A DNA stretch of 64,000 nucleotides from a virus, in the IMG/VR virus record IMGVR_UViG_3300025870_000008, positions 1 to 64,000 of that record; one strand, 5' to 3'. A program made the position numbers and the translations under genes. Below, piece by piece: positions 35,850 through 61,069 of the stretch. Positions within the stretch are counted from its first letter, which is position 1; the number at the start of each line of letters is the position of its first letter. Under the pieces are notes generated by a model. The model was not told where the DNA came from and made no database searches. It was given only the letters and a program-made list of their open reading frames with translations.

Positions 35850-36902
35850 ATGAGTGTTAAAAAAGTTTTCATAAGTGGAATTACTGGTCAAGATGGAAGT
35901 AATATGTGCGATTATTTATTGCAAAATCATGATTTAGAAATCTTTGGCGGTATACGAAGGATAAGTGTTAAAAACTATAAAAATATTAAACACTTAAAAG
36001 ATAACCCCAAAATAGAACTTGTAAATTTTGATTTAAGTGATCCTTATAGTATTAGAAATGCTATAGAAAATATTAAACCAGATTACTTTATAAATTTTGC
36101 GGCTCAATCTTTCGTGCAGTCTAGTTGGGATTTCCCAATTCAAACTATGACTGATAATGCGGTCAGTATTACTCATATGTTAGAGTCGATAAGGTTGTTC
36201 GCTCCTAAGTGTAGATTTTATAATGCAGGATCTTCCGAAGAGTTTGGCGATGTAATTTCAGAGATGCAAGACGAAGAGCATCCATTAAGACCGCAATCTC
36301 CTTATGGAGCTTCTAAATGTGCCGCGAGGCATATTGTTAGAGTGTACAGAGAATCTTATGACCTTTATGCTATACAAGGTTGGCTATTCAACCACGAGGG
36401 AAGCCGAAGAGGAACAGAGTTTGTAACAAGAAAAATCAGTAAAAATATAGCTAAATTTGTTTTTGACTTAGAGAATGGAGAAGATCCCAAACACCTAGAA
36501 CTAGGCAATCTTGACGCGTTAAGAGATTGGACTGATTCTATTGACTTCATGTCGGGAGTATGGTTAATGCTAAACCAGAAAGCAGACCCTAAGGAGTATG
36601 TCCTAGCAAGTGGAAAAACATATTCCATAAGAACTTTTCTAGAAGAAACTTTAAAACATGCAAAAATAAACTTTAAAACAGAAGGGGAAGGTTTAGAAGA
36701 AAAATATTACACTTCAGACGGAAAATTAATTGTATCTATTAATCCAGTATTTTATAGACATGCTGAAGTTAAACTTTTATGCGGAAACCCTAAAAAGGCT
36801 GAAAAAGAATTGGGTTGGAGAAGAAAAATTAAATTTAAACAGTTAGTTCGAAAGATGTTTGATAGTGATTATAACTTTTTTAAAAATAGGTGTATATATT
36901 AA
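35850..36902 (+). CDS. gmd: GDP-mannose 4,6-dehydratase
   Basis: GITGQDGS, AAQSFV, SSEEFG, PQSPYGASK, FNHE, FVTRKI, GNLDA.RDW. Confidence 0.95.
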   Translation: MSVKKVFISGITGQDGSNMCDYLLQNHDLEIFGGIRRISVKNYKNIKHLKDNPKIELVNFDLSDPYSIRNAIENIKPDYFINFAAQSFVQSSWDFPIQTMTDNAVSITHMLESIRLFAPKCRFYNAGSSEEFGDVISEMQDEEHPLRPQSPYGASKCAARHIVRVYRESYDLYAIQGWLFNHEGSRRGTEFVTRKISKNIAKFVFDLENGEDPKHLELGNLDALRDWTDSIDFMSGVWLMLNQKADPKEYVLASGKTYSIRTFLEETLKHAKINFKTEGEGLEEKYYTSDGKLIVSINPVFYRHAEVKLLCGNPKKAEKELGWRRKIKFKQLVRKMFDSDYNFFKNRCIY

Positions 36903-46431: not shown

Positions 46432-47154
46432 ATGGCTAAAATTTGTTTTAAAAGTAAATCAATTTTTTTTCATGTTCCTAAAAATGCGGGAACATCACTG
46501 ACTGTATTTTTCGGTCGGTGTGGGTGGAATACATTTCGGTATTCTCCGATAGATGGACCTTCTGACACAATAAGTCCTGATTATAAATACTCGAAAGGTT
46601 GCTGTATTAGAGTTCGGGAAAACATGAAACAAATTGCAGCTCATAATGATTTAGAGAGAGAGCAGGGTAAAACTATCCCATACTTTGTAAAAAATATGAA
46701 TTCATCAGAACTTCAAATGGTAAAAAAAATCGACCATAATACTTGGGGTGATTTTTATAAATTTGCTTTTGTAAGAAACCCTTGGGATAGATTAATTTCG
46801 GCTTGGAAAAATAGAGTAACAAGCATACCCACTTTTGAAAAGTTTCTTGACTGTTTACCATTTGATAAAAGATTAACAGATATTTATTGGCATACTATGC
46901 CCCAGTATGATCATTTGTACGACGAACAAGGAAAACGATTGGTGCAAGATATATTTAAGTATGAAGAACTTGATGTGTATATGGACCACATTAAGTTAAA
47001 ATTAGCATTGCCAGATTTTTCTATTGATAAAAAATGGAATTCAAGCGGAGCAAGAAAGCGTTACTCAGAATATTATACTAAAACTGAACAAATTGAAAAA
47101 GTAGCAAAAATTTACGAAAAGGATATAAATCAATTTAATTATAAATACAGGTAA
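46432..47154 (+). CDS. carbohydrate sulfotransferase (Sulfotransfer_2-like)
   Basis: HVPKNAGTS 5-prime PSB loop; FVRNPWDRLISAW 3-prime PB motif; H..PQ; YEKD..F.Y. Confidence 0.88.
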   Translation: MAKICFKSKSIFFHVPKNAGTSLTVFFGRCGWNTFRYSPIDGPSDTISPDYKYSKGCCIRVRENMKQIAAHNDLEREQGKTIPYFVKNMNSSELQMVKKIDHNTWGDFYKFAFVRNPWDRLISAWKNRVTSIPTFEKFLDCLPFDKRLTDIYWHTMPQYDHLYDEQGKRLVQDIFKYEELDVYMDHIKLKLALPDFSIDKKWNSSGARKRYSEYYTKTEQIEKVAKIYEKDINQFNYKYR

Positions 47155-47160
47155 AAGGTT

Positions 47161-48021
47161 ATGAAAATAAATGAAAAAAATATACTCTACTCGTTCTCTT
47201 TAAACTTAAATAAAGAAGTTGAAGAAGAAGTAGAAAAGAAAACTAAACGAAAAAATAAAGAAACTGGAAAAATGGAAGTGGTAACTTCTATCGAGAAGGT
47301 TAAAGTGGATAAGGAAATTCCTTATAGAATGGTAATCAAGAAGCCAAATAGAACGGAACTTGAAGAAGGGGATATGTTTTATAGTTTGGAGCTGAATAAG
47401 TTTATTAAAATGGGATTGCTTACGAAAGCGATGCTAGCTAAACAATACGGAAATCAAGGAGGAATATGGTCTGAAAAGGAGCAAAAGATATATGCTGAAT
47501 TATTATACAAAATGCATCAAAAGCAGTTAGAAGTTCAACAGTTTTCCATACTTGGAGAAAATAATAGTTTATCTAATAGACAAAAAGAAAAATTAAACGA
47601 GTCAATAAGAGATTTATCTTTCTTGAAAAGAGAGTTAACTGAATACGAAATGCTTCAAAACTCTTTGTTTGATCATACTGCGGATGTAAAAGCCAGAAAC
47701 CGAGCTATAATGTGGTATGTTTTAAATTTAAGTTACTTCCAAGAAGGCGAAGGCAAGGATAGGCCTTTTGAAAAAATGTTTGATGGGGATAATTTTGAAT
47801 CAAAATATGAATCCTATCAAGACAAGGAAGACTCAGAAAACGAATTGTACCAAAAGAGTATTGATAAAATTTCATCTATAGTTACAATATGGTATGTTAG
47901 TGGAAACCAAGATGCTGAAAGTATAGAGGCGATATTTGAAGAAATGAAAAACAACCTCAAGGAAGACGAATCTTCAGAGGAAAATTTAGAAGAGAATTTG
48001 GAAGAAGAAGCAAGTGGATAA
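47161..48021 (+). CDS. putative tail assembly chaperone
   Basis: helical protein between tail tube and TMP. Confidence 0.55.
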   Translation: MKINEKNILYSFSLNLNKEVEEEVEKKTKRKNKETGKMEVVTSIEKVKVDKEIPYRMVIKKPNRTELEEGDMFYSLELNKFIKMGLLTKAMLAKQYGNQGGIWSEKEQKIYAELLYKMHQKQLEVQQFSILGENNSLSNRQKEKLNESIRDLSFLKRELTEYEMLQNSLFDHTADVKARNRAIMWYVLNLSYFQEGEGKDRPFEKMFDGDNFESKYESYQDKEDSENELYQKSIDKISSIVTIWYVSGNQDAESIEAIFEEMKNNLKEDESSEENLEENLEEEASG

Positions 48022-49003
48022 TAGAGAAGCATCTTTGTTGTTTCAAGAAATATGCGAAGGCTTCTCTGTTTCAAAAATAAATTCGAAAAAAATTTATGTA
48101 AAACATTTAACATTAAAAGAATTTAATATTGTTAACAGTATTTATGAAGATTATTATTCTAATGCTATAAAAAAAAACATTCCTAATAGTAAAGATTTGT
48201 TTGAAAGCTTAAAGGAAACAGGTCAATGGACAGAAAAAGACGAAGAGAATTTATCTAACCAAGAGTTGGAGATAAAAAATCTAAAGCAGACTTTAAAAAA
48301 AGTATTCAGAGGGTTTGAAAAAGAGTCTATATCAAAAAGATTAAAAGAACTTGAACCTGAATTTAAAGAATCTTTAAAGTTAAAGAAATCTTTTTTACGC
48401 GTTACGGCTGAACACTACGCTGAAAAAAAAAGCAACGAAGAGGTGTTAAGACTGTGCACATTTAAAGATGCAAAATTAGAAGAAAAATTATGGACAGAAG
48501 AAGAGTTTCAAGATTTAGATTATTTTGAATTAAATAGTTTTTTTAATTTGTACTCGCAAGCTATAGAAAAGTTTTCGGACAAAAATATAATGCAAACTTC
48601 TCTTTTTAGTTCTTTTAAAAATTTAACATCCATTTTTGATAAAGATTTGTCTAGTTTTTTTAATAAACCAGTATTGCAACTAAGTTTTTACCAAACTAAT
48701 TTACTGAATTACTCTAAAATGTTTCAGGCTATTTTTGAGAATAGAGAAATCCCTAAAGATATACAAGGAGATGCGGAAAAAATCATTAATTTCATAGAGG
48801 AAGCGGATGCCAAAAAAGATAAAGCCGAAAAGATAATTAAAAAATCTCAAGAATCAGATGGGTTTTCATTTGCAAAATTGTCAAACGAAGAGATGAAGGA
48901 ACTTGGTGTTGAAAAACCTAAAGGTAAAGATATTCACAAGTTAGCCCAAGAAAAAGGGGGGGAGTTAACCATGGAGGACTTCATGAAAATGCATAAAAAA
49001 TAG
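48014..49003 (+). CDS. putative second tail assembly chaperone
   Basis: directly upstream of TMP; GTG start. Confidence 0.5.
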   Translation: MDNREASLLFQEICEGFSVSKINSKKIYVKHLTLKEFNIVNSIYEDYYSNAIKKNIPNSKDLFESLKETGQWTEKDEENLSNQELEIKNLKQTLKKVFRGFEKESISKRLKELEPEFKESLKLKKSFLRVTAEHYAEKKSNEEVLRLCTFKDAKLEEKLWTEEEFQDLDYFELNSFFNLYSQAIEKFSDKNIMQTSLFSSFKNLTSIFDKDLSSFFNKPVLQLSFYQTNLLNYSKMFQAIFENREIPKDIQGDAEKIINFIEEADAKKDKAEKIIKKSQESDGFSFAKLSNEEMKELGVEKPKGKDIHKLAQEKGGELTMEDFMKMHKK

Positions 49004-49030: not shown

Positions 49031-52000
49031 ATGAGCGTCATACAAATACCAACCAGTTCGACTGGGTTTAAAGAAAGCATTGTTAGAGATGCTAGAGCGG
49101 CTCAAGCTGCTGTAAATAGGATGCAAATGACACCTCAGTTGAACCCTAAAGGAATGGTTCAACCATTAGGTAAAATAACAAATGCTGCAAGCGAGTTTCA
49201 GAAATCAATGGATGCATCTGCAGCTCGTGTTTTTGCTTTCGGAGCGGCTGTTGGAGTAATTAATGGAATATCTGATGCTTTCAAGGGTATGGTGTTGGCT
49301 ACCGCTCAAGTTGAAAAATCCCTAAAGGATATTCAAGTTGTAATGGAAGTTTCTGACCAAGCAATGAGAAAGTTTGGAGACGGATTGTTTGATGTAGCTA
49401 GAAACACAGCAACATCTTTAAAAGATGTTGCGGAGTCGGCCACAGAATTAGCTAGGCAAGGTTTAAGTGCTGAAGAAACTTTAGCAAGGGTAAACTCAGC
49501 GTTAGTGTTAAGTAGGTTGTCGGGATTAGACGCCGTAAAGTCAACAGAAACTTTAACAGCAGCAATAAACTCGTTTAACAAAGAGGGTATCACTCACGAG
49601 CAAATTGTTAATAGAATGGCAAATGTTGATGCTGCTTTTGCTGTGTCATCAGCTGATTTAGCTGAGGCAATATCTAGAGCAGGAGCCGTTGCTCAGTCAT
49701 CTGGGGTTTCATTTAATGAATTGTCAGCGGTAATAACCGCTGTTCAACAAAGAACAGCTAGAGGAGGATCCGTAATAGGAAATGGATTCAAGAGTATATT
49801 TACTAGGATTAAAAGGAGCGGTGTTAGAGAATCTTTAGAAGAAATTGGGGTAGCAACAAAAAATTTAGACGGGTCTTTTCGTAGTGGAATGGATGTAATA
49901 TTAGATTATGCAGATGTATACAAGACTTTGTCAGATAGTCAGAAAGCTTATACATCTGAGCAATTAGCGGGAGTTTACCAAATTCAAAATCTACAAGCAT
50001 TGTTGCAAGATTTAAACAGTGGGTTCTCTATATATAATAAAGCTCTTGGAGTTGCGAATAATACAACAAATGAGGCCGTGCAAAGAAACGAACAATTAAA
50101 TACAACTTTAGACGCTTTATTTAAACAAACGACTTTAAGCTCTCAAGAGCTAGCAGCCTCAATTGGGGACTTAGCCCTATCTGGAAACTTTAAAGAAATT
50201 CTAAAATTCCTAGACAGTTTAGCTCAAAAACTAAATTCTCTTTTTTCAGACGAAGGAGGGTCTGATATAGCTAAAAATCTCATCAGGGGCATTGGTAGCT
50301 TTTTAACTGGGCCAGGAATGGTTATTTTAGGAGCTGCTTTTATAAAAATATTCGGGCTAGTAACAAAGTTCGCAAAAGAAGCCTTTGCGGATATACTAGG
50401 GTTAAATTCGGAAACTAAAAGACAACAATCTTTACAAGCCGCAATTGGGCAAATATTAAGTTCAAACGCTGGGATCTATCAAAAAATACTTGCGGCGGGA
50501 AGTAATACAGCGAAACAAGAGCAGATAATTTTAAACATTATAAAACAAGAAACAGCGGAACGTTTAAAACAAGAAGCTTTAATTAAGAGAATTTCGGCTG
50601 GATCAAGGCTAGCGGGGATTGGAGCTTCTGATGCTGGTTTTGTGCCTATGGGAAAAAGACCCTCTAGGAATCAAGGGAAGCGAGCACTAGGAATGGCTAG
50701 CGGTTTCTTGCCAGCTTTCGCTAGAGAATCCAGAGATATATACAAGGGAGTAGGGGGAGCTAGGAAAACCGACTCGCCAGTTTCAACAAAAATAAAAACG
50801 ACCCCTGGGAAGACCGAAGATGTTGTGGTAAATACTGGAGAATGGATAGTTAGAAACTATGAAGGGTCGGGGGCTGATGCTGTTTTTAATCGAAATATGG
50901 CAAAAGCATATGGGTTGCCAAATGGCTCTCAAAAAGTAAATGCAGCCTCTGGAATAATACCAAACTTTTCAAAAGGGGGATTTGGGTCTGGTAAAACAAT
51001 TAGCTATACCGCCAGACAACTTGGGGGGAGTGGCAATATGGGTGCAATATCAAAAATAAGTAAATACGCAGACTTAAGCGATAAGTTTACTGGAAAAGTA
51101 AAAATAGAAAGAATGCCGCAAAATAATTCGTATTTTGAAAAAAAGGCGGCCTTACTAAAAGATAAATTAATTCAGAGAGACTCAGGTCAAAAAGATGGAA
51201 GAGTAAAATATGCGGTCAATCAAGATTATAAAAAATTTTTAGAGCGAAGGTATAAAGGTTTGATAGACAACGGGGTTTACCGAGGAATTTTTACAAGTGC
51301 GGAAAATATAGCTAAACAGCCAGCGTATTCTGGTAAGCAGCCAGCGAAAACGAGGAACCTGTTTGCAAGTTTAGTGGCTAAATCAAAAGGGCTAGTCGGA
51401 GAAAGTAAGGGTAGGTTCTATTTAGCTGGTAAACCTGGTAGTCAGAAAGCGTCATACATAAAAGGAAACGATCCTTTTGATATAACTGTTGAGTCTATGA
51501 CATCAAAGGGTCAAAGAAGATTTAAAAAATACGAGCAAAAAACTAAAAACGAACAAAATATTACCGCAGTCCTTAAAAAGGGAGCTTCGTCGTTTTTAGA
51601 TAATTTAATAAATCGTCAACAAAAGTCTGGACGTCAAGCGATTGGGATAAAAGATGGTAATTTTCAGAATATTAACTTAACCCAAGGTTCGGCAGCTATG
51701 TTTAGAGGTGGGCTAAACATGCTAGTACCAAAAGATACAAAAATTAAGAATTCTCCATTAAAAAAAGACAAAGGATACACCATTCAAAAAAATCAAGACC
51801 CTGGGCAAGGGCAATTTGGTTTCTTGAATGCTTCGAGTGGTTATGTTCCTAATTTTGTTGACCGCAGAAATAAATATCAAAAAATAAAAGATGTTTTAGC
51901 TGACCCAGCTAATAAAAATATTAAATTTAATTCGCCAACTTTTAAAAAATTAAGCATTGAAACGGTTAAAAAAGGCATGGGTGGAGAATTTCAGAAGATG

Positions 52001-55000
52001 TGGTTGGAAAACTATTTCAAAAAAGGTCTATCGGGGGATTATAAAATGCTAATGAGAATGGGTTATGATCAAGACCAGCTTTTAAAACTAAGGAAGCATT
52101 ACACAAGAGGTGGAAAAATAAATATAAAAACTTTGTCCAAAGGTTTTATTCCAAACTTTGGTAAGACATTGGCAACAAGTCGTGGTGCTATAACCGCCCA
52201 GCAAATAAATAGATTAAAAGAGGGAAAGCTTATTAATAATAAAAAAACTGGAGAAAAACTTTATTTAAATCAATTTACTCCAGATGAGCAAACCGCAATT
52301 AAAACGTTTAAAGCTGCTAATAGTAAAGAAGCAATAGCTCAAAAAGAACAACGAGCAAAAAAGGCAAAAAATCAATTGAAAACGATTGACGCTTCAAGGC
52401 AAGCAACAATGCTTGTTGCTACAAAAAATTTCAGACAAAAAGTAGATACAACAACTCAGTCTGGAGAAAATAAAGTCCGACTAAAATATAGAGTAGAAGG
52501 AATCAAGGGTCAGAAAATAGGCGATCAAGAAACTGCATTAAGGAATAAAGCTGAAAAGTTTATGTTGAACCAAGCTCATTTAACCGCAATGAAAATGGCT
52601 GGAACTGGACAATTTGCGGCAAACACACCTATGCCTACTAAGGTTGCGAATGCTGGCAGTATAGGCTCTGCAGCTGGATCAATTTTTGAAACAGCTGTGC
52701 AATCAATTGGTAAGAACTCACTGTTTACTAAAAATAATGCAACATTTGACATTCAGGGATTTCCAGATAATTCATTAAAGAATTTATTTGGATATTATAG
52801 TCCTTTTGCGGACGCAAAAATCGGACTAACCCCAGGAACTAAAGCTGATTTTAATAAAAAACTGCTAAGTTTACCAGAGATTAAACAGAAAATCACAGGA
52901 AAACAAAGGAGAGAGCAGGGAGGAGTGGCTTTAAAATCTAGGAAGAATTTATCGAAAGGGTACATACCTAACTTTTCAAAATTTGCAGACTTCAGAGGTA
53001 CGAGCGGACTAGTGGGAGGTACGGCTTTAGCTGGTTTGTTTGCCGCAAACACCTATGAAGGAATGGGGGACGACCCTGGAACAGCAGCGTTAATGTCCTC
53101 GCTTATGTTTGGGGCGGGATCTTTTGGAGGTATTAAATCTGGAGATAAATTAAAAAGCATGTACGAAAATGATTATAAAAGATACAGCTCAACAATAGGC
53201 AATGTAACATATGATTTTTATAAAAAAGATCATTTAGAATACAATAAATTATCAAAAGATGTTAATCAGAGAATTAGAGCGGCAAACGAAAACTTGATAT
53301 CTGTTTTATCTGGAAGAACAGAAGGGGGAAATCTAGATGTATCAAATATAGAAAAAGAAATACAAGAGCTTAAAAAAGAAAAACAGGCTATAGATAAGAA
53401 ATATATTAAAAAAAGCGCTGGAGTTAAATCCGCTAGATTTAACCCAAGAATGATGTCGTTAATGAAAAAAAATGGAAGTAGGGGAAGACGTGGAAATATG
53501 TCTAAGGGTTATTTGCCAAACTATTCAAGTAAACCTTGGATGAGCAGCAAGCAGTTTGCGAGATTCAGCGGAAGTGTCGGTGGTTTTAACAAGCATGTAG
53601 TTCAATCAAAAGTGGGGTCTATAACAAGCTCACCATTGAGATCTCCTGGTAGAGATAAATTGTTTTCATTTTCTAGAAGAAGACAAAAAGAATCACTAGG
53701 AAATATAAAACAATATATAAACTCAGATTTTTTTAGATCTTTAGACCCAGATATACAATCAAGAGTTGTGAAGTTTTACAACAAAAGAATGTCTAGTTTT
53801 AAGACAAATCAGCAGCCTGAATACTTAAAGGACAATGCTAGATCTAATGCTAGAACAATGAACTTTGGAAGGGGGTATGTACCAAATTATGCAAACCCTT
53901 TAATGGATGCTCTATCTAGGGAAAAAGGAGCTTTAAGCGCTAGAGGTATTTCTTCTAGTGCTATTAGGGTAGAGCAGAGCTCTAAACTAAAAAGCTCGAT
54001 GAATCCAGAAGGTTTGGCTGTCACAAATAAAATAGATGAACCCTTGGGTGTTGACCAAGGCATATCAAGAGCGAAGAGAATAGGGGTAGACCCTAAAACT
54101 CATGGGGTGACACCAAATTTCGCCGTTTTCCCCGCGCTTATCCCGCTTTTAAAGCCGTTGGTAAGCGGTTTAAGTACTGCAGTTATGCTTGGAGTTGGGC
54201 CGCTACTAAAAGCTCTTAAAGGTACAGGTAAATTTGTTAAAAACCAAGGATCAAAAACTATAGGGGGGATGGGCGAAATGGGTGCAATGGAAATGGGTTT
54301 AATGTTTGGGGGTCCGATGATGGCGGAAATGTTGAAGAATGGTAGGGGTGAAGGACAATTGCCTGGATCTACAGGTGTAGCAACAGATACTCTAGAATAT
54401 GCATCAATGGGAGCCTTACTGGGCAAACGAGGAATGATTGCGGGTGCTGCTGGTGGTGCATTAGCAGGACTATCAAGAATGTCAGAAAGAGATCTTCAAG
54501 TAGAAGCATTTGAAAAAATAATAAAACAAAAAGAAAAATTAGATAAATCATTGCAAAATTCTCAAGCTATTCAAAATTATGCAACTGGAGTAGTTGGGTT
54601 AAACGAAGCTTTGAAAAAAGGAGATTTCGAGGGAGTTGCCAAGGCTCAAAATATGATTTATGAGGCTATGAGTAATGCAAGTGATCCAGAATTAATAAAG
54701 AAGTTTGGGGATTTACAAAATTCGTCAAAAACTGCTGAAGAAAAATTACAAGCTCTAAGTAAAGAAATGGATAATCTAGGAAAAAGAGCGAACAACTTAA
54801 AGGGTCTAATCGGAATTACTGAAGATTTGCCAACACAAAAAAGTTCTGGAGATGATTTAAGCCTAGGGGATAGAGCTCAGGAAGTCGCAACTCAGGTTGG
54901 AGCTAGGCTTTGGTCCGCGACTAAAGATGTAGTTGATTTAGAATTTGGTGGTATATTTGATAGAGCAAATAAAGCGGGAAATGAGGTCGCGGCGAGTAAT

Positions 55001-57427
55001 ACCGATAGGGACGCTTTCGTCGGAGAGGGTGGGGAAGAGAAGCGCACAAGTATTACAAATAAATTATTAGATTCCTTAAAAAATAGAATTAAAACAGAAG
55101 AAGGAGAAAGAACCGCATCTAGATTGAGTGGAAAGAATACCACCAGTAAATTAACAAGCGATTTAGGCACTACAGAAAAGCTTAGAAATTTGCTACTCAA
55201 AAGAGTTGAAAATGAGTCGAAAGGAGTTAGCGACCCAGATTCCTTAAAGAGAGAAATAAGGAACATGCAAGATTCAGATTTTGAATTTGGTGCTATTGGG
55301 GATAAAATTAAAGATATCGCAGATTGGGATATAGATGTTACTGATAAAGTAAATTTATTAAACCAAGAAATTAAACATTTAAGTGACACGATAAAGGTTA
55401 CAAGCGGATTAATTGGAAAGTCTCAAAAAGAGATTAAAGATGGGATGAGCACGGACATGGCAGTTAAAGCAGCTTCAGAAGTTGTAAAAAACTTAAATAT
55501 AGCCGAAGAGACCAGAAAAGAGATTGAACATCTAACAAGTGGAAAAATTTCAGATCCGACAGCAGAATTTAAAAACCAAGAAGATGTAAGATCGATTCAA
55601 AGATCTAAGACTATAAAAGAGTTAGGTAAAGAAGACAAAAAAAGTGCGAACAATTTAATGAACGAACTAGCTAACTCAAAAACATTACGAGCGCTCTTCA
55701 AAAAACGAGGTGGAGAAGAATCTGATAGAGCTAATACGCTTGCTCAAACTTCACTTTCATCTGTAGGTCAACAATCAGAGCTTGAAAAAAAATCTAATAA
55801 TGCATACGAAAAAGTAAAGTCTCAATTTGAACAAATGAAGAGTTCTCAAAGGCTTTTCGATGAAATGCAAGCTAACTATAAACAAGGGTCTTCGTTAAGA
55901 GATTTTGAAAACGATACAAGAAATCAAGCGAAAGTAAGCGCGAACGATTTTATGACTTCAAGAGGTTATCTTTCTGAGCGTAAATATGTAGATAGATCAA
56001 GTAAAATTCAAAAAGATTCAGTACTTCAAAACCAATCGAACAAACTAAACGATCAGCTATTAAATTTGGCATCTTCATTTACAAATATGTCATCATTGTT
56101 TGACCCCTCAAACTCACAAAGAACAGAGTTAGGGCTAGGGAAGGAACCTGGTAGAAAAGGTCTTGGTAAATTTGAAGACGAAGAGCAAAAAAGACTCAAA
56201 GGTGAAAGCCAGGAAATAGCAGTAATTATGCGGCAATTTGCTCAAGATAATCAAGATGGGAATATAACTTTATCAGAAACCAAAGGGGTAATTGAAAAAT
56301 TAAAAATGATCGGAGAAAAAGGAAACTTGATAGCTCAAACATCCTATAATCTAGAAAAAGCAAATGGAAGAGAAACGATAGCTCAATTAAATAGAATTGC
56401 GTTGGAATCTTTAGTGGCTCAGGCTAGAGCAGCTAGCAGTAGATTAGAACGTCAAGGCGGCGAAATACTTGGACCACAAGCTCGAAAAGCGAACACTGAA
56501 TTCAGTATGAAAGGAACTAAGAATATGCCAGAGATGGAAGCGACTGCTAGGTCTATAACATGGGATGTAAGAAATAATCAACGTCCATCTATGAATAATG
56601 ATGTATTTGATAATAAAGACCCTGGTGCAGAAACTACAGGGTCGATGGGGGCAGAGGCTATTAATGCATTTAGAAAATTAGCGGCTACACTTGGCGTGAA
56701 CGAAACAATGTTCACAGGGATGAATGAAGATATGGCTAATTATATAATATCCTTAGAAAATGCAAATAATTGGTTTAGTGACTTGCAGAAATTTGACCCA
56801 GAGTCAGCTGAAAAATTAAGACCAATATTTGAAAAACTAAAACAAAATTTAGATGAAGATTTGAAAACCACACAAAATTTTGCTGCAAATTTAAAAGAAA
56901 TAGCTGATAAAACAGGTAATATAAACCCTGAAGACTTGAAAGACCCAATGGACAAATTAGGTCAAACGATATCAAATAAATTAGACGCTGGTATTAATAT
57001 AGTGAATATGGAGGCCAATATAACAACCCCTTTGACCTCAATAAAAGAAGCGATAATAACTCAAACAGAAGAGATTATTAAACTGCAAGAAGGAAAGAGT
57101 AAAGGTGATGAAGGTGGTGAAGGTGGTGAAGGTGGTGAAGGGGTAGATTTTAAAGCGCTAGCCGCATCAGTAACTACTTTTTCTGAATCCATAAATCAAT
57201 TATCGGATTTCCCAAAAACATTAGTGGACACATTAAGTGGGTTGGCAATCAAACACGAGGTGACTGGTGGTATAAAATTTGATTTTAATTCTGATGTGGT
57301 AAGAGGGCAGTTAACTCCAGTAATGATGGAAACATTAAAAAATCTACTTCAAGATGGAGTAATTTTAGATTACTTGGCAAACGCCTTAGCCCCAAGAATA
57401 CAATTAAGAACTCAAGTCGAACCTTAA
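49031..57427 (+). CDS. tail tape measure protein (TP901-type N-terminal domain) with internal modules
   Basis: 2798 aa; ELARQG, LAEAISRAG, GSVIGNGFKSIFTRI; position. Confidence 0.9.
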   Translation: MSVIQIPTSSTGFKESIVRDARAAQAAVNRMQMTPQLNPKGMVQPLGKITNAASEFQKSMDASAARVFAFGAAVGVINGISDAFKGMVLATAQVEKSLKDIQVVMEVSDQAMRKFGDGLFDVARNTATSLKDVAESATELARQGLSAEETLARVNSALVLSRLSGLDAVKSTETLTAAINSFNKEGITHEQIVNRMANVDAAFAVSSADLAEAISRAGAVAQSSGVSFNELSAVITAVQQRTARGGSVIGNGFKSIFTRIKRSGVRESLEEIGVATKNLDGSFRSGMDVILDYADVYKTLSDSQKAYTSEQLAGVYQIQNLQALLQDLNSGFSIYNKALGVANNTTNEAVQRNEQLNTTLDALFKQTTLSSQELAASIGDLALSGNFKEILKFLDSLAQKLNSLFSDEGGSDIAKNLIRGIGSFLTGPGMVILGAAFIKIFGLVTKFAKEAFADILGLNSETKRQQSLQAAIGQILSSNAGIYQKILAAGSNTAKQEQIILNIIKQETAERLKQEALIKRISAGSRLAGIGASDAGFVPMGKRPSRNQGKRALGMASGFLPAFARESRDIYKGVGGARKTDSPVSTKIKTTPGKTEDVVVNTGEWIVRNYEGSGADAVFNRNMAKAYGLPNGSQKVNAASGIIPNFSKGGFGSGKTISYTARQLGGSGNMGAISKISKYADLSDKFTGKVKIERMPQNNSYFEKKAALLKDKLIQRDSGQKDGRVKYAVNQDYKKFLERRYKGLIDNGVYRGIFTSAENIAKQPAYSGKQPAKTRNLFASLVAKSKGLVGESKGRFYLAGKPGSQKASYIKGNDPFDITVESMTSKGQRRFKKYEQKTKNEQNITAVLKKGASSFLDNLINRQQKSGRQAIGIKDGNFQNINLTQGSAAMFRGGLNMLVPKDTKIKNSPLKKDKGYTIQKNQDPGQGQFGFLNASSGYVPNFVDRRNKYQKIKDVLADPANKNIKFNSPTFKKLSIETVKKGMGGEFQKMWLENYFKKGLSGDYKMLMRMGYDQDQLLKLRKHYTRGGKINIKTLSKGFIPNFGKTLATSRGAITAQQINRLKEGKLINNKKTGEKLYLNQFTPDEQTAIKTFKAANSKEAIAQKEQRAKKAKNQLKTIDASRQATMLVATKNFRQKVDTTTQSGENKVRLKYRVEGIKGQKIGDQETALRNKAEKFMLNQAHLTAMKMAGTGQFAANTPMPTKVANAGSIGSAAGSIFETAVQSIGKNSLFTKNNATFDIQGFPDNSLKNLFGYYSPFADAKIGLTPGTKADFNKKLLSLPEIKQKITGKQRREQGGVALKSRKNLSKGYIPNFSKFADFRGTSGLVGGTALAGLFAANTYEGMGDDPGTAALMSSLMFGAGSFGGIKSGDKLKSMYENDYKRYSSTIGNVTYDFYKKDHLEYNKLSKDVNQRIRAANENLISVLSGRTEGGNLDVSNIEKEIQELKKEKQAIDKKYIKKSAGVKSARFNPRMMSLMKKNGSRGRRGNMSKGYLPNYSSKPWMSSKQFARFSGSVGGFNKHVVQSKVGSITSSPLRSPGRDKLFSFSRRRQKESLGNIKQYINSDFFRSLDPDIQSRVVKFYNKRMSSFKTNQQPEYLKDNARSNARTMNFGRGYVPNYANPLMDALSREKGALSARGISSSAIRVEQSSKLKSSMNPEGLAVTNKIDEPLGVDQGISRAKRIGVDPKTHGVTPNFAVFPALIPLLKPLVSGLSTAVMLGVGPLLKALKGTGKFVKNQGSKTIGGMGEMGAMEMGLMFGGPMMAEMLKNGRGEGQLPGSTGVATDTLEYASMGALLGKRGMIAGAAGGALAGLSRMSERDLQVEAFEKIIKQKEKLDKSLQNSQAIQNYATGVVGLNEALKKGDFEGVAKAQNMIYEAMSNASDPELIKKFGDLQNSSKTAEEKLQALSKEMDNLGKRANNLKGLIGITEDLPTQKSSGDDLSLGDRAQEVATQVGARLWSATKDVVDLEFGGIFDRANKAGNEVAASNTDRDAFVGEGGEEKRTSITNKLLDSLKNRIKTEEGERTASRLSGKNTTSKLTSDLGTTEKLRNLLLKRVENESKGVSDPDSLKREIRNMQDSDFEFGAIGDKIKDIADWDIDVTDKVNLLNQEIKHLSDTIKVTSGLIGKSQKEIKDGMSTDMAVKAASEVVKNLNIAEETRKEIEHLTSGKISDPTAEFKNQEDVRSIQRSKTIKELGKEDKKSANNLMNELANSKTLRALFKKRGGEESDRANTLAQTSLSSVGQQSELEKKSNNAYEKVKSQFEQMKSSQRLFDEMQANYKQGSSLRDFENDTRNQAKVSANDFMTSRGYLSERKYVDRSSKIQKDSVLQNQSNKLNDQLLNLASSFTNMSSLFDPSNSQRTELGLGKEPGRKGLGKFEDEEQKRLKGESQEIAVIMRQFAQDNQDGNITLSETKGVIEKLKMIGEKGNLIAQTSYNLEKANGRETIAQLNRIALESLVAQARAASSRLERQGGEILGPQARKANTEFSMKGTKNMPEMEATARSITWDVRNNQRPSMNNDVFDNKDPGAETTGSMGAEAINAFRKLAATLGVNETMFTGMNEDMANYIISLENANNWFSDLQKFDPESAEKLRPIFEKLKQNLDEDLKTTQNFAANLKEIADKTGNINPEDLKDPMDKLGQTISNKLDAGINIVNMEANITTPLTSIKEAIITQTEEIIKLQEGKSKGDEGGEGGEGGEGVDFKALAASVTTFSESINQLSDFPKTLVDTLSGLAIKHEVTGGIKFDFNSDVVRGQLTPVMMETLKNLLQDGVILDYLANALAPRIQLRTQVEP

Positions 57428-57439
57428 TAATAAATTCAT

Positions 57440-60400
57440 ATGAATTTTAATAATGTAAATATACTAGGAATATCATATCAAAAAATTGATTTCGATTCTA
57501 ATTATGTATTTCAAAAAAAGAAAGCTATTACTTTAAGTGGAAATTTTTTAGATTTAGGAAACGATAGTGGAGTAAAAAATATTATTGAAGCTTATAGCGA
57601 TTTAATCGAAATTGAAAACGCCTTAAATTTAACAGACTCATCCATAACCCATAACCTTCAGGAAATTTTTATTAATAGTGTTTCTTATGGAGAAGGTACT
57701 GTAGAAAGCATTGCTATATCTGGGGAACACATACAAACAGCGGAGTTTCAAGCAAGTTTGATTTTTGTTGAAGAGGGAGATTTAAGTAAAATATTAATAT
57801 CTAAAAATTCTTCTAGTAGTGAAAGTTTTAACTCGTCAGGTTTAACAAACGAGGATTTGAAATATTTAGATTCTTTTGATGAAAATTTTAGTTTTGGAAT
57901 TTCTGGATCTCAACGATCCGTAGGTCATGAAATAAGCTGCTCGTTTAAAAAAAGAAAATCTTTAATACCTTATAGAAAAAACGTATGGAGCAACTCTTCA
58001 ATACAAAACTCTAAGTTAAAAAATTTAAATAATAAAGGCAAGGGTTCCATTAAGGTTTTAAACGGAGAAACCGCTAGTCATCAAATTTTTCTGGAATCTG
58101 GGGATTACATATTGGAGCTAGAATACCTTGGGCAGGATTCAGACGTATGGGGCCAAGCAAGTGTGCAATGCGAAAGTAAGACAGAAAATTTACCAGATAT
58201 ATACTCTCATAGAGAAATACAATTTAATGTAGATGTAGACAAGAATGTAAATATAAATTTAATCGCGAATACTACTAGCGATACTTTTTTTGATAATATT
58301 AAACTATTCAAAAAAAGCGAAATGCCTTTAGAAAAGGCGAGGCAATTTGTAAATTTTATTTTCTCAGAATCTCCAGAATACCCAATAATAAGTGATCAAT
58401 TTGGAGAAAACTATTCAGATGTAAGTTTATACGAAAGGTTAAATTCAGAGGAGTCGTTTGATAGTATAAATAACTCGTACTCTGTTGCTAAAAGCCTGCA
58501 GTATAACGAAACAGACTCTACAAAACAATACTCAAGGAGACTTTCTTCTTCTATTAATTTTGAAGGCAATGGTGTTGCTACTATTAAGGAATCTATAGAA
58601 ATTAAAATCTTAAAAGAGAAAACCGACACAAAATTAAAAAATTTTTTACAGCTAGAATTATCTGGTTCCAGGGCAAGAGGTCAAGCTTTACTCGATGAAT
58701 ACGGGCAGTTAAATGTGGTAACATGCCCAACTCCAACAATCACTGAGTTAATAGAAGGTCTGTTTGGTTTTTCGGAATCTTTGAGCGTACAATACGATTT
58801 TGATTCAGGTTTAGCAAGTGCAGAAATTTCTTATTCTAATAATCAAGAAAATGAAATCTACTCAGGCTCAGCATTTAAGGTTACACAATCTAGGATGATT
58901 GAGTTTAATGGAGGGTTTGAGATTGTTAGGTTGTCTGGTAATATTGTTGGTAAAGGCGACGATATTATAACTAGAAATAACCACGCTAAGAAAGGATTAC
59001 AGTTTATTGTAGAGGGCACCAACTCGACACTGAGAGAGATAGAAGGTAGATATAAATTAGACTATTATTCAACCCCAACGAAAACTTCCACGGAAATACA
59101 AACCAAGTTGTTGGAGACAAATAAAACTCTATCATTTGATGACGTAAGTGGGGTCATATCTTATTCTTACTCTTTTAGTAATGAGAGGGGTGTTGTTGAT
59201 TTACCTGAAGACCAAAAAGACAGAGTAAAAAAATATGAAATTAAAATAAGTCATCAAAATAGAATTAATTTATTTAACGAGTTTTCAATAAATTGCTTGA
59301 GGATAGCTCAGGTTATGGGAGACTTGTTTTCTCCAAAAGTTACAACGGTAGAAATATTAGTAAATGGTAGGGCTGGCACCACGTTACAAATGCTAAAACA
59401 AAGCGCTGTAAGTATATTGGGGCACAAGAATTTGTTGTTTGGAGAAATATCAAAAGGCGTAAAAGATGATGTTATAAATAGTAATGAAAATAAATTTTTA
59501 GTAGACGAAAGTTATTCTTATGACCCGACAGAAAATAGATTAAGTTACAGCAGATCGATATTAGATGTATCAGATTGCCCAACTTCAAACATAGGTGATG
59601 GATACCCGTGGACATACGAAGCAGATTTCGAAGAACCGACGGAGCCAACCAGAACCAGCTTTGAATATCAGCCTATAGAATATAATTTTAAAGAAACTCC
59701 GAGTGAAAGCGGGTTTGTGTTAGATCCAGATGACTACGAAATAGAATATCCAGAACCAACTTTGACGGATTTCTACTCTGAAGAAGTGCCACCGCCTACA
59801 TTTTTAACATCTCCAGCTGTTACTCGAACTAGTTTCCCTGAAACCACGCAAACACCAACAATCAGCGAAAGTCCAGAAGCTAACGATTCAGAAGATAGGT
59901 TGGTTGAAGTTTTTGTGCCAGAAGATTGGAATAAGACTATTAGTGAACTAGTTCCAGGGGGCACAATAATATCAGGAAGAAGATGTTTTGACGAAAGCGG
60001 AGGGCCGAATAATTTAATTCAAAATATTATTTCCACCTCTTATGCTTTTTCAACGGTAGTTAGAGATTGCATAAGAGGTGGAAGTGGTCAACCTTGGTAC
60101 AGTTTTACATTTTCTATACCAAGAGATCAAGGTTTCACTCCGCCGTACAGTGATAACTGTCAGTTTTTTAATGTGACAGTTCCAGATTTTTATGATGAAA
60201 ATTTAAACTGTTTATTAAAGGAGAATGGTGTTTGTATAGGAGATAGTAGTAACTTAATTGGATATCACATCGCTCCTGGAACTTTTATATATAGTGATTT
60301 ATATACTAGTGAAACATTTATTATAGCCGCTCAAACATATAATAATAACCACCCTTATTTTAATAAAGGGGAGGTTGTTAATGGAGAGGTAAGTTTTCAA

Positions 60401-61069
60401 ATATGTAAAGATGATAAAAGTGGAATAGTTAAAACCGAACAGGTTATACAAACAGTTTCGATACCATTTAACTCTGGTAAGACAGTAGTTCAAGAAATTA
60501 TAGATGGAGTACAGGGTTGGCAGGCGGGTAAGTGTTACGAAATGATAGGTTTAAAAGATTGCAGTTCAGGAGTGAGATTTAATTTAAACGACAGAAGGTA
60601 CTATAAGGGAGATGTTTTAGATAGATGCGGAGAGTTATCTTTTAATGATTTAGTTACAGATGTTTATGTTAGAGAATTTTCATGCTCTTCAACAGTGTTA
60701 GATGAAAGTGTAATATATGATTACGAATCTCCAGTTACACCAACGAGCACAGTCACTGAAACAGCTACGGTTACACCAACAGTCACTATAACTACAACAG
60801 CAACCCCAACAGTTACAATAACCACAACGATTACAGAAACAGAAACAATAGATTGTAGTGGTTGCTTTGCTTATTATGATTCTGATTGGGAAGATTATAG
60901 TAATACCAATTGCTTTGATGGAGTTCCAACTTGTTCAGACCCATGTGCGTGTTCAGTTGTGTTAAATGATAATGGTAACCCAGACGGATTTTTTGGGGGT
61001 GGAACAGGGCCTACTTTATCATGTTGTGACGACGAGGTGAGAGGAGATAATGATTGCAACACATGTTAG
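57440..61069 (+). CDS. tail/baseplate protein with Thr-rich and Cys-rich C-terminus
   Basis: follows TMP; beta-rich body; TPTSTVTETATVTPT tract. Confidence 0.65.
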   Translation: MNFNNVNILGISYQKIDFDSNYVFQKKKAITLSGNFLDLGNDSGVKNIIEAYSDLIEIENALNLTDSSITHNLQEIFINSVSYGEGTVESIAISGEHIQTAEFQASLIFVEEGDLSKILISKNSSSSESFNSSGLTNEDLKYLDSFDENFSFGISGSQRSVGHEISCSFKKRKSLIPYRKNVWSNSSIQNSKLKNLNNKGKGSIKVLNGETASHQIFLESGDYILELEYLGQDSDVWGQASVQCESKTENLPDIYSHREIQFNVDVDKNVNINLIANTTSDTFFDNIKLFKKSEMPLEKARQFVNFIFSESPEYPIISDQFGENYSDVSLYERLNSEESFDSINNSYSVAKSLQYNETDSTKQYSRRLSSSINFEGNGVATIKESIEIKILKEKTDTKLKNFLQLELSGSRARGQALLDEYGQLNVVTCPTPTITELIEGLFGFSESLSVQYDFDSGLASAEISYSNNQENEIYSGSAFKVTQSRMIEFNGGFEIVRLSGNIVGKGDDIITRNNHAKKGLQFIVEGTNSTLREIEGRYKLDYYSTPTKTSTEIQTKLLETNKTLSFDDVSGVISYSYSFSNERGVVDLPEDQKDRVKKYEIKISHQNRINLFNEFSINCLRIAQVMGDLFSPKVTTVEILVNGRAGTTLQMLKQSAVSILGHKNLLFGEISKGVKDDVINSNENKFLVDESYSYDPTENRLSYSRSILDVSDCPTSNIGDGYPWTYEADFEEPTEPTRTSFEYQPIEYNFKETPSESGFVLDPDDYEIEYPEPTLTDFYSEEVPPPTFLTSPAVTRTSFPETTQTPTISESPEANDSEDRLVEVFVPEDWNKTISELVPGGTIISGRRCFDESGGPNNLIQNIISTSYAFSTVVRDCIRGGSGQPWYSFTFSIPRDQGFTPPYSDNCQFFNVTVPDFYDENLNCLLKENGVCIGDSSNLIGYHIAPGTFIYSDLYTSETFIIAAQTYNNNHPYFNKGEVVNGEVSFQICKDDKSGIVKTEQVIQTVSIPFNSGKTVVQEIIDGVQGWQAGKCYEMIGLKDCSSGVRFNLNDRRYYKGDVLDRCGELSFNDLVTDVYVREFSCSSTVLDESVIYDYESPVTPTSTVTETATVTPTVTITTTATPTVTITTTITETETIDCSGCFAYYDSDWEDYSNTNCFDGVPTCSDPCACSVVLNDNGNPDGFFGGGTGPTLSCCDDEVRGDNDCNTC

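What the first reader, a model, noticed from the sequence alone, without database searches (positions are those of the whole stretch)
50693..54121. Tape measure protein is segmented by eight GxxPN(F/Y)-type motifs: possible polyprotein
Seen: MASGFLPAF (50693), AASGIIPNF (50942), ASSGYVPNF (51830), LSKGFIPNF (52133), LSKGYIPNF (52949), MSKGYLPNY (53498), FGRGYVPNY (53864) and HGVTPNF (54101). They delimit unrelated, mostly Lys/Arg-rich segments of about 80-300 aa that do not look like helical TMP repeats. The motif is conserved in protein but not DNA sequence. Inference: protease cleavage or assembly signals that let the tail carry exchangeable cargo domains for injection with the DNA.
Basis: partly seen in the sequence, partly recalled or inferred. 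Interest (0 to 1): 0.75.

Follow-up and report, generated by a model that had tools for sequence, protein, structure and literature searches.

The report
Tail ruler protein with peptide-fenced modules
The tail "ruler" protein of this uncultured marine phage carries seven unrelated, separately folding modules, each fenced by the same ten-residue peptide; related phages add, drop and reorder modules at that peptide, but what reads the peptide is still unknown.

Summary
The 2798-aa ORF at 49031-57427 is a TP901-type tape measure protein (TMP). All eight motifs sit at the stated coordinates. Chance predicts 0.06 copies, and the motif occurs in no other long ORF of the 80.8-kb genome. The consensus is [AFM][AS]xG[FY][IV]PN[FY][AS]. 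It recurs 3-14 times in all 52 first-found relatives. The family has 510 representative clusters and at least 495 viral contigs, none from cultured phages. The motifs lie in low-confidence linkers between foldable modules. Module D folds at pLDDT 89. The modules are mutually unrelated and basic (net +105). Relatives gain or lose them motif-to-motif. A core of modules A, D and G is widespread. Two relatives without modules D and G have decayed motifs but keep the tail genes. Cutting and delivery are not shown, and no protease was recognised. My best reading (about 0.4) is that the motifs are processing sites that separate modules, extending the single TMP cleavages of T5 and lambda. A rival reading is docking of a periplasmic chaperone: the motif core YIPN equals the core of the SurA-binding peptide WEYIPNV. 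This scan has found the same architecture before on other DNA (35 notes, at least 29 genomes).

The parts
49031..57427 (+). Tape measure protein gene, 2798 aa, one uninterrupted ORF
   Evidence: ORF; PF10145, 108.7 bits against a cut-off of 33.2; 11 PHROG TMP families, all matching within aa 17-1210
49031..50692 (+). N-terminal TP901-type TMP domain (aa 1-554). PF10145 lies at aa 123-314. Hydrophobic stretches lie at aa 62-80 and 420-449.
   Evidence: conserved in 175 of 190 family proteins (cluster 0)
50693..50722 (+). Motif 1, MASGFLPAFA (Ala in place of Asn, as at this site in many relatives)
50723..50941 (+). Module A (aa 565-637), widespread. It is a small beta-rich domain in the model of a relative.
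50942..50971 (+). Motif 2, AASGIIPNFS
50972..51829 (+). Module B (aa 648-933), an accessory module found in 30 of 190 family proteins. Conserved residues are kG..GE / fD / E.K / lKK.
51830..51859 (+). Motif 3, ASSGYVPNFV
51860..52132 (+). Module C (aa 944-1034), an accessory module found in 25 of 190 proteins. It is related to two other small module families.
52133..52162 (+). Motif 4, LSKGFIPNFG
52163..52948 (+). Module D (aa 1045-1306), a core module found in 125 of 190 proteins. It gives a confident alpha/beta model. Invariant residues are G1216, F1219, E1220, D1240 and K1263.
52949..52978 (+). Motif 5, LSKGYIPNFS
   Evidence: the population SNP at 52954 is synonymous
52979..53497 (+). Module E (aa 1317-1489), an accessory module found in 9 of 190 proteins
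53498..53527 (+). Motif 6, MSKGYLPNYS
   Evidence: in relative P0002 the Gly is lost but YLPNY is kept
53528..53863 (+). Module F (aa 1500-1611), an accessory module found in 17 of 190 proteins and duplicated in P0012
53864..53893 (+). Motif 7, FGRGYVPNYA
   Evidence: population SNPs here are synonymous or V1617I
53894..54094 (+). Module G (aa 1622-1688), the most widespread module, in 149 of 190 proteins. Invariant residues are R-E, N-P-x-G and N-x-x-D-E.
54095..54124 (+). Motif 8, KTHGVTPNFA, which runs straight into a hydrophobic segment
54107..54217 (+). Hydrophobic, Gly/Pro-rich membrane-type segment (aa 1693-1729)
   Evidence: Kyte-Doolittle 19-aa windows of 1.4 or more
54218..57424 (+). 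C-terminal roughly 1070 aa with no motif, slightly acidic. Large indels between relatives here are not at motifs.
47161..49003 (+). Two overlapping upstream ORFs (286 and 329 aa) in the position of tail assembly chaperones. The first ends in an acidic tail. They are candidate but untested motif readers.
   Evidence: homologues in 93 and 96 of 99 loci; no Pfam or PHROG family

Best explanation
This is a tape measure protein that carries a cassette array.

SHOWN. An N-terminal TP901-type ruler domain (aa 1-554) is followed by seven mutually unrelated, basic modules (aa 565-1688). Module D (tested) folds confidently on its own. Next come a membrane-type hydrophobic segment and a roughly 1070-aa C-terminal part. 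Every junction carries one copy of a ten-residue linear motif, [AFM][AS]xG[FY][IV]PN[FY][AS]. In the modelled relative, all four motifs lie in low-confidence linkers. The motif is under protein-level selection. Related phages gain, lose and reorder modules in units of one module plus one motif.

INFERRED, as the mechanism I commit to. The motif is a recognition site for a protease that is not yet identified; it could be a host enzyme or a phage enzyme too divergent to recognise. During tail maturation or on ejection, the TMP is cut at the junctions, so the modules leave the tail tube as separate proteins ahead of the DNA. This extends the known single cleavages of the T5 and lambda TMPs into a polyprotein-like design. 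The stated confidence applies to this cleavage step. The architecture itself I hold at above 0.9.
For: Motif reality and specificity: 8 copies against 0.06 expected, and none in another long ORF of the genome. All 52 first relatives have 3-14 copies. Of the 189 collected proteins, 187 have at least one strict copy. The logo from 309 unique instances shows G, P, N and F nearly fixed, with small residues at -2 and +6, which is the length and shape of a viral polyprotein site.

One motif stands at every junction, including N-domain|first module and last module|C-part.

The motifs fall in low-pLDDT linkers (residues 1-23, 98-109, 303-323, 375-409) between modelled domains of a minimal relative. 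Module D of the window folds at pLDDT 89.1 and pTM 0.75.

Module turnover occurs at motifs: 8 of 17 large indels span motif-to-motif and 4 more have one end at a motif.

Motif constraint goes with the core modules. L076 and P0118 lack modules D and G and have decayed motifs at the two remaining sites, yet L076 keeps homologues of all conserved tail genes.

Population SNPs within motifs are synonymous or V-to-I.

Precedent, from passages read in bioRxiv 10.1101/2022.09.20.507954: T5 pb2 and the lambda TMP are cleaved during tail morphogenesis. The T5 cut separates an enzymatic domain that stays in the tail. Its reference list cites host involvement in the T5 tail-protein cleavage.
Against: No cleavage product has been seen, and no cultured relative exists in which to look.

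No protease family was recognised in any ORF of 120 aa or more from 29197 to the end of the contig. This is weak evidence, because the prohead protease was not recognised either.

The motif is absent from head and other virion proteins, so the prohead protease is an unlikely reader.

Modules D and G cannot be a universal built-in protease: L054 (3712 aa, 10 motifs) lacks their signatures. L051 lacks them too, but is cut by a contig end.

Motif 1 carries Ala or Ser in place of Asn in many relatives.

In all 84 viral loci scanned the motif-bearing TMP frame is single and uninterrupted, some cut by a contig end. This is neutral for a polyprotein but gives no positive support.

The junction rule could also arise if modules simply travel with one motif during recombination.
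Confidence: 0.4

Rival explanations
1. The motif is a docking peptide for a host periplasmic chaperone or prolyl isomerase, SurA-like. The TMP leaves the tail tube as an unfolded chain into the periplasm of a diderm host. Repeated motifs in the linkers capture the chaperone. This would stop back-sliding (a ratchet), prevent aggregation and let each module refold. No cut would be needed.
For: The motif core [FY][IV]PN includes YIPN, which is present literally at motif 5. YIPN is the centre of WEYIPNV, a phage-display peptide that binds the SurA P1 domain with Kd 1-14 uM and opens SurA. SurA is reported to prefer Ar-X-Ar-X-Pro (passages read in PMC7195389 and PMC11401910).

Full clients bind SurA by avidity over several weak sites, which fits 3-14 copies per chain.

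There is precedent for a periplasmic chaperone in siphophage entry: HK97 genome injection needs PtsG and FkpA (passage in PMC5099701). That the requirement maps to the TMP is recalled from the title of the cited paper, which I did not read.

14 of the 15 genome bins holding relatives are labelled as diderm lineages. Two Bacillus-phage giant TMPs with the same N-domain have 0 motifs. The motif decays where modules D and G are absent.
Against: The first aromatic of Ar-X-Ar-X-Pro is not matched: the position two before the [FY] (-1) is mostly S, G or K. A four-residue identity with one selected peptide can be coincidence. The peptide was selected on E. coli SurA and the hosts here are unknown. 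Binning of phage contigs is unreliable. This reading does not by itself explain one motif at every junction.
Confidence: 0.17
2. The motif is a docking peptide for a phage assembly partner. The partner would be the tail assembly chaperones encoded just upstream, or the lumen of the tail tube. Docking would hold the bulky modules extended or staggered while the tube polymerises around the TMP.
For: The two chaperone-position ORFs and the 425-aa, 293-aa and 198-aa tail ORFs are conserved in 84-96 of 99 related loci. The first chaperone-position ORF ends in an acidic tail and the module region is strongly basic. The motifs lie in low-confidence linkers. A 262-aa globular domain in three copies is hard to house in a tube lumen without some ordering device (inference from general knowledge of siphophage tails).
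Against: L076 keeps homologues of all these tail genes while its TMP has lost recognisable motifs. So the motif is not needed for tail assembly as such in this lineage. The partners have diverged to 29-41% identity while G, P, N and F of the motif stay nearly fixed. No interaction was tested.
Confidence: 0.15
3. The motif is a passive joint. It would be a short turn or spacer that any module needs at its edge, kept at every junction because modules are exchanged between co-infecting phages by recombination there. It would have no dedicated reader.
For: Indels run motif-to-motif, and modules are reordered and duplicated.
Against: The DNA of the motifs is only 61% identical within this gene and uses different synonymous codons, which is a poor substrate for homologous recombination. 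A mere spacer would not keep four residues nearly invariant across 309 instances. The motif decays when modules D and G are lost.
Confidence: 0.12
4. The motif is self-cleaving at the conserved Asn through an Asn-lyase type succinimide. The reaction would be triggered by assembly inside the tail tube, as in maturation cleavages of some animal-virus capsids and autotransporters. That comparison is recalled, not checked here.
For: Asn is present in 88% of 309 instances and is followed by an aromatic residue. No protease was recognised.
Against: The flanks are not conserved, and in the modelled relative the motifs lie in low-confidence linkers, whereas such reactions need a folded catalytic environment. 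Motif 1 lacks Asn in many relatives. No test was possible.
Confidence: 0.05

Closest known systems
T5 pb2 and lambda gpH tape measure proteins, which are cleaved during tail morphogenesis (passages read in bioRxiv 10.1101/2022.09.20.507954)
   Same: They are TMPs of long non-contractile tails. A proteolytic cut lies next to a hydrophobic stretch and separates a functional domain that stays in the tail and is ejected. In the window, motif 8 likewise abuts the hydrophobic segment.
   Different: Those TMPs have one cut and no repeated consensus peptide. Here there are 8 copies (3-14 in relatives) fencing seven unrelated modules, and cutting is not shown. Only the N-terminal PF10145 region of the window's TMP matches TMPs of cultured phages.
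Thermus phage P23-45 gp96, a 5,002-residue TMP whose N-terminal part is a virion RNA polymerase (abstract and passages)
   Same: It is a giant TMP that carries a folded, non-ruler protein into the host together with the DNA.
   Different: It has one fused enzyme of known function at the N-terminus, and no motif-fenced array is described. Here the modules are central, have no recognised family and are swapped between relatives.
Polyvalent proteins of phages and conjugative elements (Iyer et al. 2017, PMC5512222; abstract and passages)
   Same: They are long proteins with 2-15 unrelated domains, thought to enter with the DNA. Release of domains by proteolysis is proposed, and the authors draw an analogy to RNA-virus polyproteins.
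   Different: That class is defined by recognisable conflict domains with embedded peptidases (zincin-like MPTase, assemblin-like and others). None is detected here. The paper's main text has 0 occurrences of 'tape measure'. No shared junction peptide is described there, as far as the passages I read show.
SurA client peptides (WEYIPNV; Ar-X-Ar-X-Pro) (PMC7195389 and PMC11401910; passages)
   Same: They share an aromatic-aliphatic-Pro-Asn core. They act as linear peptides in unfolded chains in the periplasm and bind by multivalent avidity.
   Different: That peptide is artificial and was selected on E. coli SurA. The upstream aromatic is missing from the TMP motif. Binding has not been shown.

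Membership tests
TP901-family phage tail tape measure protein (Pfam PF10145) | PF10145 domain scoring above the curated cut-off | tested here: met
   108.7 bits against 33.2, at aa 123-314; 11 PHROG TMP families match
TP901-family phage tail tape measure protein (Pfam PF10145) | Position in a tail gene module, after chaperone-position genes and before distal tail genes | tested here: met
   It is the largest ORF of a co-oriented late block. The upstream tail ORFs are conserved with the TMP in 84-96 of 99 loci.
TP901-family phage tail tape measure protein (Pfam PF10145) | Determines tail length and sits in the tube lumen | not testable with these tools
   No virion or cultured relative is available
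Proteolytically processed viral polyprotein | Conserved recognition peptide at each junction between functional units | tested here: met
Proteolytically processed viral polyprotein | A cognate protease, in cis or in trans | tested here: inconclusive
   No protease family was recognised in the TMP or the other ORFs. Most virion genes of this phage match no family at all, so the test is weak.
Proteolytically processed viral polyprotein | Separate mature products | not testable with these tools
   Needs proteomics of virions or viral metaproteomes
Polyvalent proteins (Iyer et al. 2017) | Several unrelated domains in one polypeptide of a phage or plasmid | tested here: met
Polyvalent proteins (Iyer et al. 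2017) | Recognisable conflict or enzymatic domains with embedded peptidase (for example zincin-like MPTase) | tested here: not met
   Pfam finds only PF10145 in the window's TMP and in two relatives of up to 4493 aa, plus a lysozyme outside the motif region in one further relative
D ... (D/E)xK, conserved across relatives | tested here: met
   Module D: G172, F175, E176, D196 and K219 are invariant and K233 is nearly so in 49 sequences. Module B: kG..GE / fD / E.K in 30 sequences.
   In the module D model (pLDDT 89.1) E176 lies in a helix and K219 at the end of a lone strand. Searches of solved structures are reported under Tried and rejected. Module B was not folded.
SurA P1-domain binding peptides | Ar-X-Ar-X-Pro pattern (PMC11401910) | tested here: inconclusive
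   Ar-aliphatic-Pro is fixed, but the upstream aromatic is replaced by S, G or K at -1. An aromatic occurs at -3 in 27% of instances.
SurA P1-domain binding peptides | Measured binding to SurA | not testable with these tools
   Needs ITC or NMR with a host's chaperone

The most novel reading that the evidence does not exclude
The repeated peptide mimics the signature by which periplasmic chaperones recognise unfolded outer-membrane proteins. The phage would thread its ruler protein out of the tail as an unfolded chain. Host SurA-type chaperones would then grab each linker in turn. This would pull the chain out like a ratchet and refold a changeable set of phage proteins inside the host envelope before the DNA follows.
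Probability: 0.13. Interest if true: 0.85.

Novelty: new variant of a known kind. Interest (0 to 1): 0.6.

Why it matters
Tape measure proteins are usually treated as helical rulers with, at most, one embedded wall-degrading domain. Here a very large, purely metagenomic phage lineage uses the ruler as a rack for folded, fast-evolving modules. The lineage has 510 clusters at 50% identity and at least 495 viral contigs. This particular phage was found in 20 marine runs from 13 studies. The modules are joined by one invariant peptide.

If the peptide is a cleavage or hand-over signal, it defines a general way for long-tailed phages to deliver pre-made proteins, and a simple sequence handle for finding such cargo in metagenomes. 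It also sharpens an open question: how do folded domains travel inside, and leave, a 4-nm tail tube?

The core modules A, D and G have no recognised family. Module D gives a confident model with a conserved E/D/K cluster, so it is a good target for structure and function work.

Tried and rejected
Cultured relatives: tblastn of the whole TMP against 50,697 phage records matched only aa 11-447. Module A and module G with their flanking motifs gave no match at E up to 1.

Family searches: Pfam on the whole TMP, on six separate modules and on three relatives gave only PF10145, plus a lysozyme outside the motif region in P0027. Profile searches of solved-structure sequences found nothing below E 0.2 for module D (A6) and nothing for module G (A7). 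The ESM Atlas gave no usable hit for module D.

Fold searches of the 409-residue core model: Foldseek against the PDB gave 0 matches at E of 0.001 or better. VIA-align wide gave a best Z of 4.5 over 46 aligned residues.

Fold searches of the module D model: Foldseek PDB gave 0 matches at E of 0.001 or better. BFVD gave 0. VIA-align wide gave a best Z of 4.8, rmsd 6.4, 71 aligned, with no nuclease among the 50 rows. These values are below the tool's stated chance level, so they show neither a new fold nor exclusion of a nuclease fold.

Alignments: A2, A3 and A5 mixed several modules. MAFFT anchored the rows on the wrong motif copies. I discarded them and used the colinear A4 and the single-module A6 and A7.

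Complex prediction with the E. coli SurA P1 region (residues 165-290) and a 35-aa window linker around motif 5 gave the verdict 'no answer', score 0.02. This is not evidence either way.

Built-in protease idea: modules D and G as a cis-protease. Rejected as universal because L054 has 10 motifs and neither signature; L051 (11 motifs) also lacks both but is cut by a contig end.

Retropepsin idea (Asn-aromatic at P2-P1, recalled): no hh-D-[TS]-G-[AS] signature in any ORF of 80 codons or more of the genome.

Prohead protease as reader: disfavoured because no other ORF carries the motif.

Population variants: contigs of four marine runs laid on 50600-54200 showed no joints or indels, only 22-25 SNPs (13 synonymous and 12 non-synonymous in all). 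So there is no within-population module polymorphism for this phage in those contigs. Contigs drop rare variants.

Host: 15 genome-bin hits span six or more phyla, 6 of them Flavobacteria-labelled. This is too scattered and too prone to mis-binning to name a host.

Literature: 'tape measure protein' plus 'IPNF' gave 0 papers. Six motif strings gave 18 papers, none about phages. Supplementary files were not consulted. Those of the T5 paper (cleavage-site figure) and of Iyer et al. (architecture lists) could bear on the comparison.

Full report
WHAT IS THERE

The finding lies inside a single 2798-codon ORF (49031..57427, + strand). The ORF sits in a co-oriented late-gene block of an 80,842-base, low-G+C (about 35%) contig. 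Its first 470 residues match PF10145 (108.7 bits, cut-off 33.2) and eleven PHROG tape-measure families. In cultured phages, only that part has relatives, at 25-29% identity to giant TMPs of Bacillus, Lactococcus and Staphylococcus phages. So it is a TP901-type tape measure protein (TMP).

THE OBSERVATION

All eight motifs are at the stated places, with the glycines at aa 558, 641, 937, 1038, 1310, 1493, 1615 and 1692.
- Eight of the nine GxxP[NA][FY] matches in all six frames of the window are these.
- In the whole contig, no other ORF of 80 codons or more has the core.
- A protein of this size and composition should hold 0.06 copies. In 2000 shuffles the mean was 0.05 and the maximum 2.
- The coding DNA of the eight copies is only 61% identical and uses different synonymous codons. 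So selection acts on the peptide.
- The seven segments between motifs show no similarity to each other. They carry 15-24% Lys+Arg and a summed net charge of +105.

THE FAMILY

A word-indexed search with aa 540-1720 found 52 proteins of 1542-4493 aa, all with 3-14 copies of the motif. A full HMMER scan of 1.84 billion representatives found 510 clusters at E of 0.001 or better, 362 at 1e-10 or better and 56 at 1e-30 or better; most are TMPs of 2000-3700 aa. Of the 189 proteins collected, 187 have at least one strict copy, and the modal number is three. In IMG/VR at least 495 stretches encode a relative.

In the 84 viral loci I inspected, the frame holding most motifs is a single uninterrupted frame of 1.7-5.7 thousand codons where it is complete; several are cut by a contig end. 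No second motif-bearing frame lies beside it. Only five other long frames have one chance copy each.

A logo from 309 unique instances gives [AFM][AS]xG[FY][IV]PN[FY][AS]. G and P are fixed by the search pattern; N is present in 88% and F in 87%. The flanks are unconserved but basic and Gly-rich.

None of the family is in the cultured-phage collection. Two Bacillus-phage giant TMPs with the same N-domain have no copy.

MODULES

I cut all proteins at the motifs and clustered the pieces. This gave discrete module families. In this report's letters the window reads N | A | B | C | D | E | F | G | C-part.
- Widespread modules: G in 149 of 190 proteins, D in 125 of 190, and A.
- Minimal TMPs of about 2000 aa read N | A | D | G | C-part.
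- Accessory modules: B (30 proteins), C (25), F (17) and E (9).

Profile-profile comparison of 20 module families found only two related groups.

Relatives differ by whole modules. P0004 has one extra 65-aa module between C and D. P0006 has a 209-aa one at the same place. P0005 replaces C. P0012 duplicates F. P0013, P0016 and P0023 hold the same modules in other orders. Among 17 indels of 40 aa or more in 11 close pairs, 8 run motif-to-motif within 12 residues at both ends, 4 have one end at a motif, and 5 lie elsewhere, 3 of them in the motif-free C-part.

STRUCTURE

An AlphaFold2 model was made of the minimal core of a relative (L067, 409 aa, 29-row colinear alignment A4). Mean pLDDT was 63. 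All four motifs fall in stretches below pLDDT 50 (residues 1-23, 98-109, 303-323, 375-409). Module A is a beta-rich domain (pLDDT 66-73), module D an alpha/beta domain (75-89) and module G a small domain (57-72).

The window's own module D, with 49 rows (A6), folds at pLDDT 89.1 and pTM 0.75. It has a four-strand meander and long helices. So at least this segment is a real globular domain and not a helical ruler repeat, and in the modelled relative the motifs occupy low-confidence inter-domain linkers.

I could not assign any module to a known family or fold; details are under Tried and rejected.

NUCLEASE NOTE

An earlier first-reader note proposed PD-(D/E)xK signatures in modules B and D. 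At sequence level this is true. Module D keeps G..FE, FD and DxK invariant, plus a later K (Q residues E1220, D1240, K1263). Module B keeps kG..GE, fD and E.K. In the confident model, however, the Glu sits in a long helix and the Lys at the end of a lone strand. That is not the classical core. I leave membership inconclusive. A conserved acidic/basic cluster suggests an active or binding site of some kind.

WHAT THE MOTIF DEPENDS ON

Two relatives, L076 (2101 aa) and P0118 (2550 aa), keep module A but lack D and G. At the two remaining motif positions the peptide has decayed, for example to SLPSGAG and VPFAASG, or GFLPQAF and GFTPNL. L076 still has homologues of every conserved tail gene, including both chaperone-position ORFs. 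So the motif is not needed for tail assembly as such; its constraint goes with the core modules.

Conversely, L054 (3712 aa) has 10 motifs but no D or G signature, so D and G are not a universal built-in reader. L051 (11 motifs) also lacks both signatures, but it is cut by a contig end.

In four marine runs from four studies the region is colinear, with 13 synonymous and 12 non-synonymous SNPs. Those inside motifs are synonymous or V1617I.

MECHANISM

The motif behaves as a short linear recognition peptide placed at every junction.

I commit, at about 0.4, to proteolytic processing. The arguments are one site per junction including both outer ones, a 10-residue consensus with small residues after the aromatic, position in low-confidence linkers, and precedent. 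The T5 and lambda TMPs are cleaved during tail morphogenesis. The T5 cut lies between a hydrophobic stretch and an enzymatic domain that stays in the tail, with host involvement reported. In the window, motif 8 also abuts the hydrophobic segment.

Against this reading: no product has been seen, no protease was recognised, and no other phage protein carries the site.

The main rival (about 0.17) is chaperone docking. The core YIPN equals the centre of WEYIPNV, the SurA P1-binding peptide (Kd 1-14 uM), and SurA prefers Ar-X-Ar-X-Pro. HK97 injection needs the periplasmic chaperone FkpA. 14 of the 15 genome bins holding relatives are labelled as diderm lineages. The upstream aromatic is not matched, however.

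The remaining rivals are docking to phage chaperones or the tube (0.15), a passive joint (0.12) and Asn self-cleavage (0.05).

COMPARISON AND NOVELTY

The closest known cases are the following.
- Cleaved TMPs (T5 pb2, lambda gpH).
- The P23-45 TMP-fused virion RNA polymerase.
- The polyvalent proteins of Iyer et al. 2017. These are defined by recognisable conflict domains and embedded peptidases that are absent here. The main text of that paper never mentions tape measure proteins.

I found no paper describing the motif. I class the finding as a new variant of a known kind.

The same architecture has already been noted by this scan on other DNA: 35 notes in at least 29 genomes, whose follow-ups reached the same 'confirmed, cutting not shown' verdict.
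- the A-D-G core architecture;
- the decay of motifs in relatives that lack modules D and G;
- a confident model of module D;
- the negative population-variant check;
- the SurA-peptide resemblance.

Noticed in passing
L067:11603-12829 and other minimal relatives (alignment A4); window 50723-50941: In many relatives, module A itself contains two further (I/V)PNF pentapeptides without the leading Gly (for example TIPNF and MVPNF). In the model these lie inside beta-strands (E42-51, E65-70). The window's module A has lost them (IVRNY). The free motif may therefore have beta-strand propensity, or module A may derive from captured motif copies.
   Followed up: partly
window 47161-49003: Two overlapping ORFs sit in the tail-assembly-chaperone position (286 and 329 aa, 8-nt overlap). 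The second is in the +1 frame relative to the first, and the first ends in an EENLEENLEEE acidic tail. This is a possible G/GT-type frameshift pair, much larger than usual. It matches no Pfam or PHROG family but is conserved in 93-96 of 99 related loci.
   Followed up: partly
L017 (IMG/VR contig), TMP frame from 9968 to the locus end: One relative's TMP frame is at least 5713 codons long with 12 motifs and is still open at the end of the locus. L009, L016 and L036 exceed 4400 codons.
   Followed up: no
window 52163-52948: Module D gives a high-confidence model (pLDDT 89) with an invariant Glu/Asp/Lys cluster, but no search found a convincing match among solved or viral predicted structures. 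It is a good candidate for experimental structure and function work.
   Followed up: yes
window 46432-47154 and 35850-36902; G000:C1 about 77816-79673: Sugar-modifying genes lie among virion genes: a sulfotransferase-like ORF between the tube and chaperone genes (present in only 5 of 99 related loci), a nucleotide-sugar epimerase/dehydratase after the portal region, and two more epimerase/dehydratase genes downstream.
   Followed up: no
window 57440-61069: The 1209-aa ORF just after the TMP ends in Thr-rich TVTxT repeats and a Cys-rich tail. It is poorly conserved, with homologues in 11 of 99 loci, as expected of a host-recognition protein.
   Followed up: no
window 50600-54200 in public runs: This phage or near-identical strains occur in 20 marine metagenome runs from 13 studies dated 2014-2025, 14 of them with half or more of the sampled words. 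One of these runs may be the source sample.
   Followed up: partly
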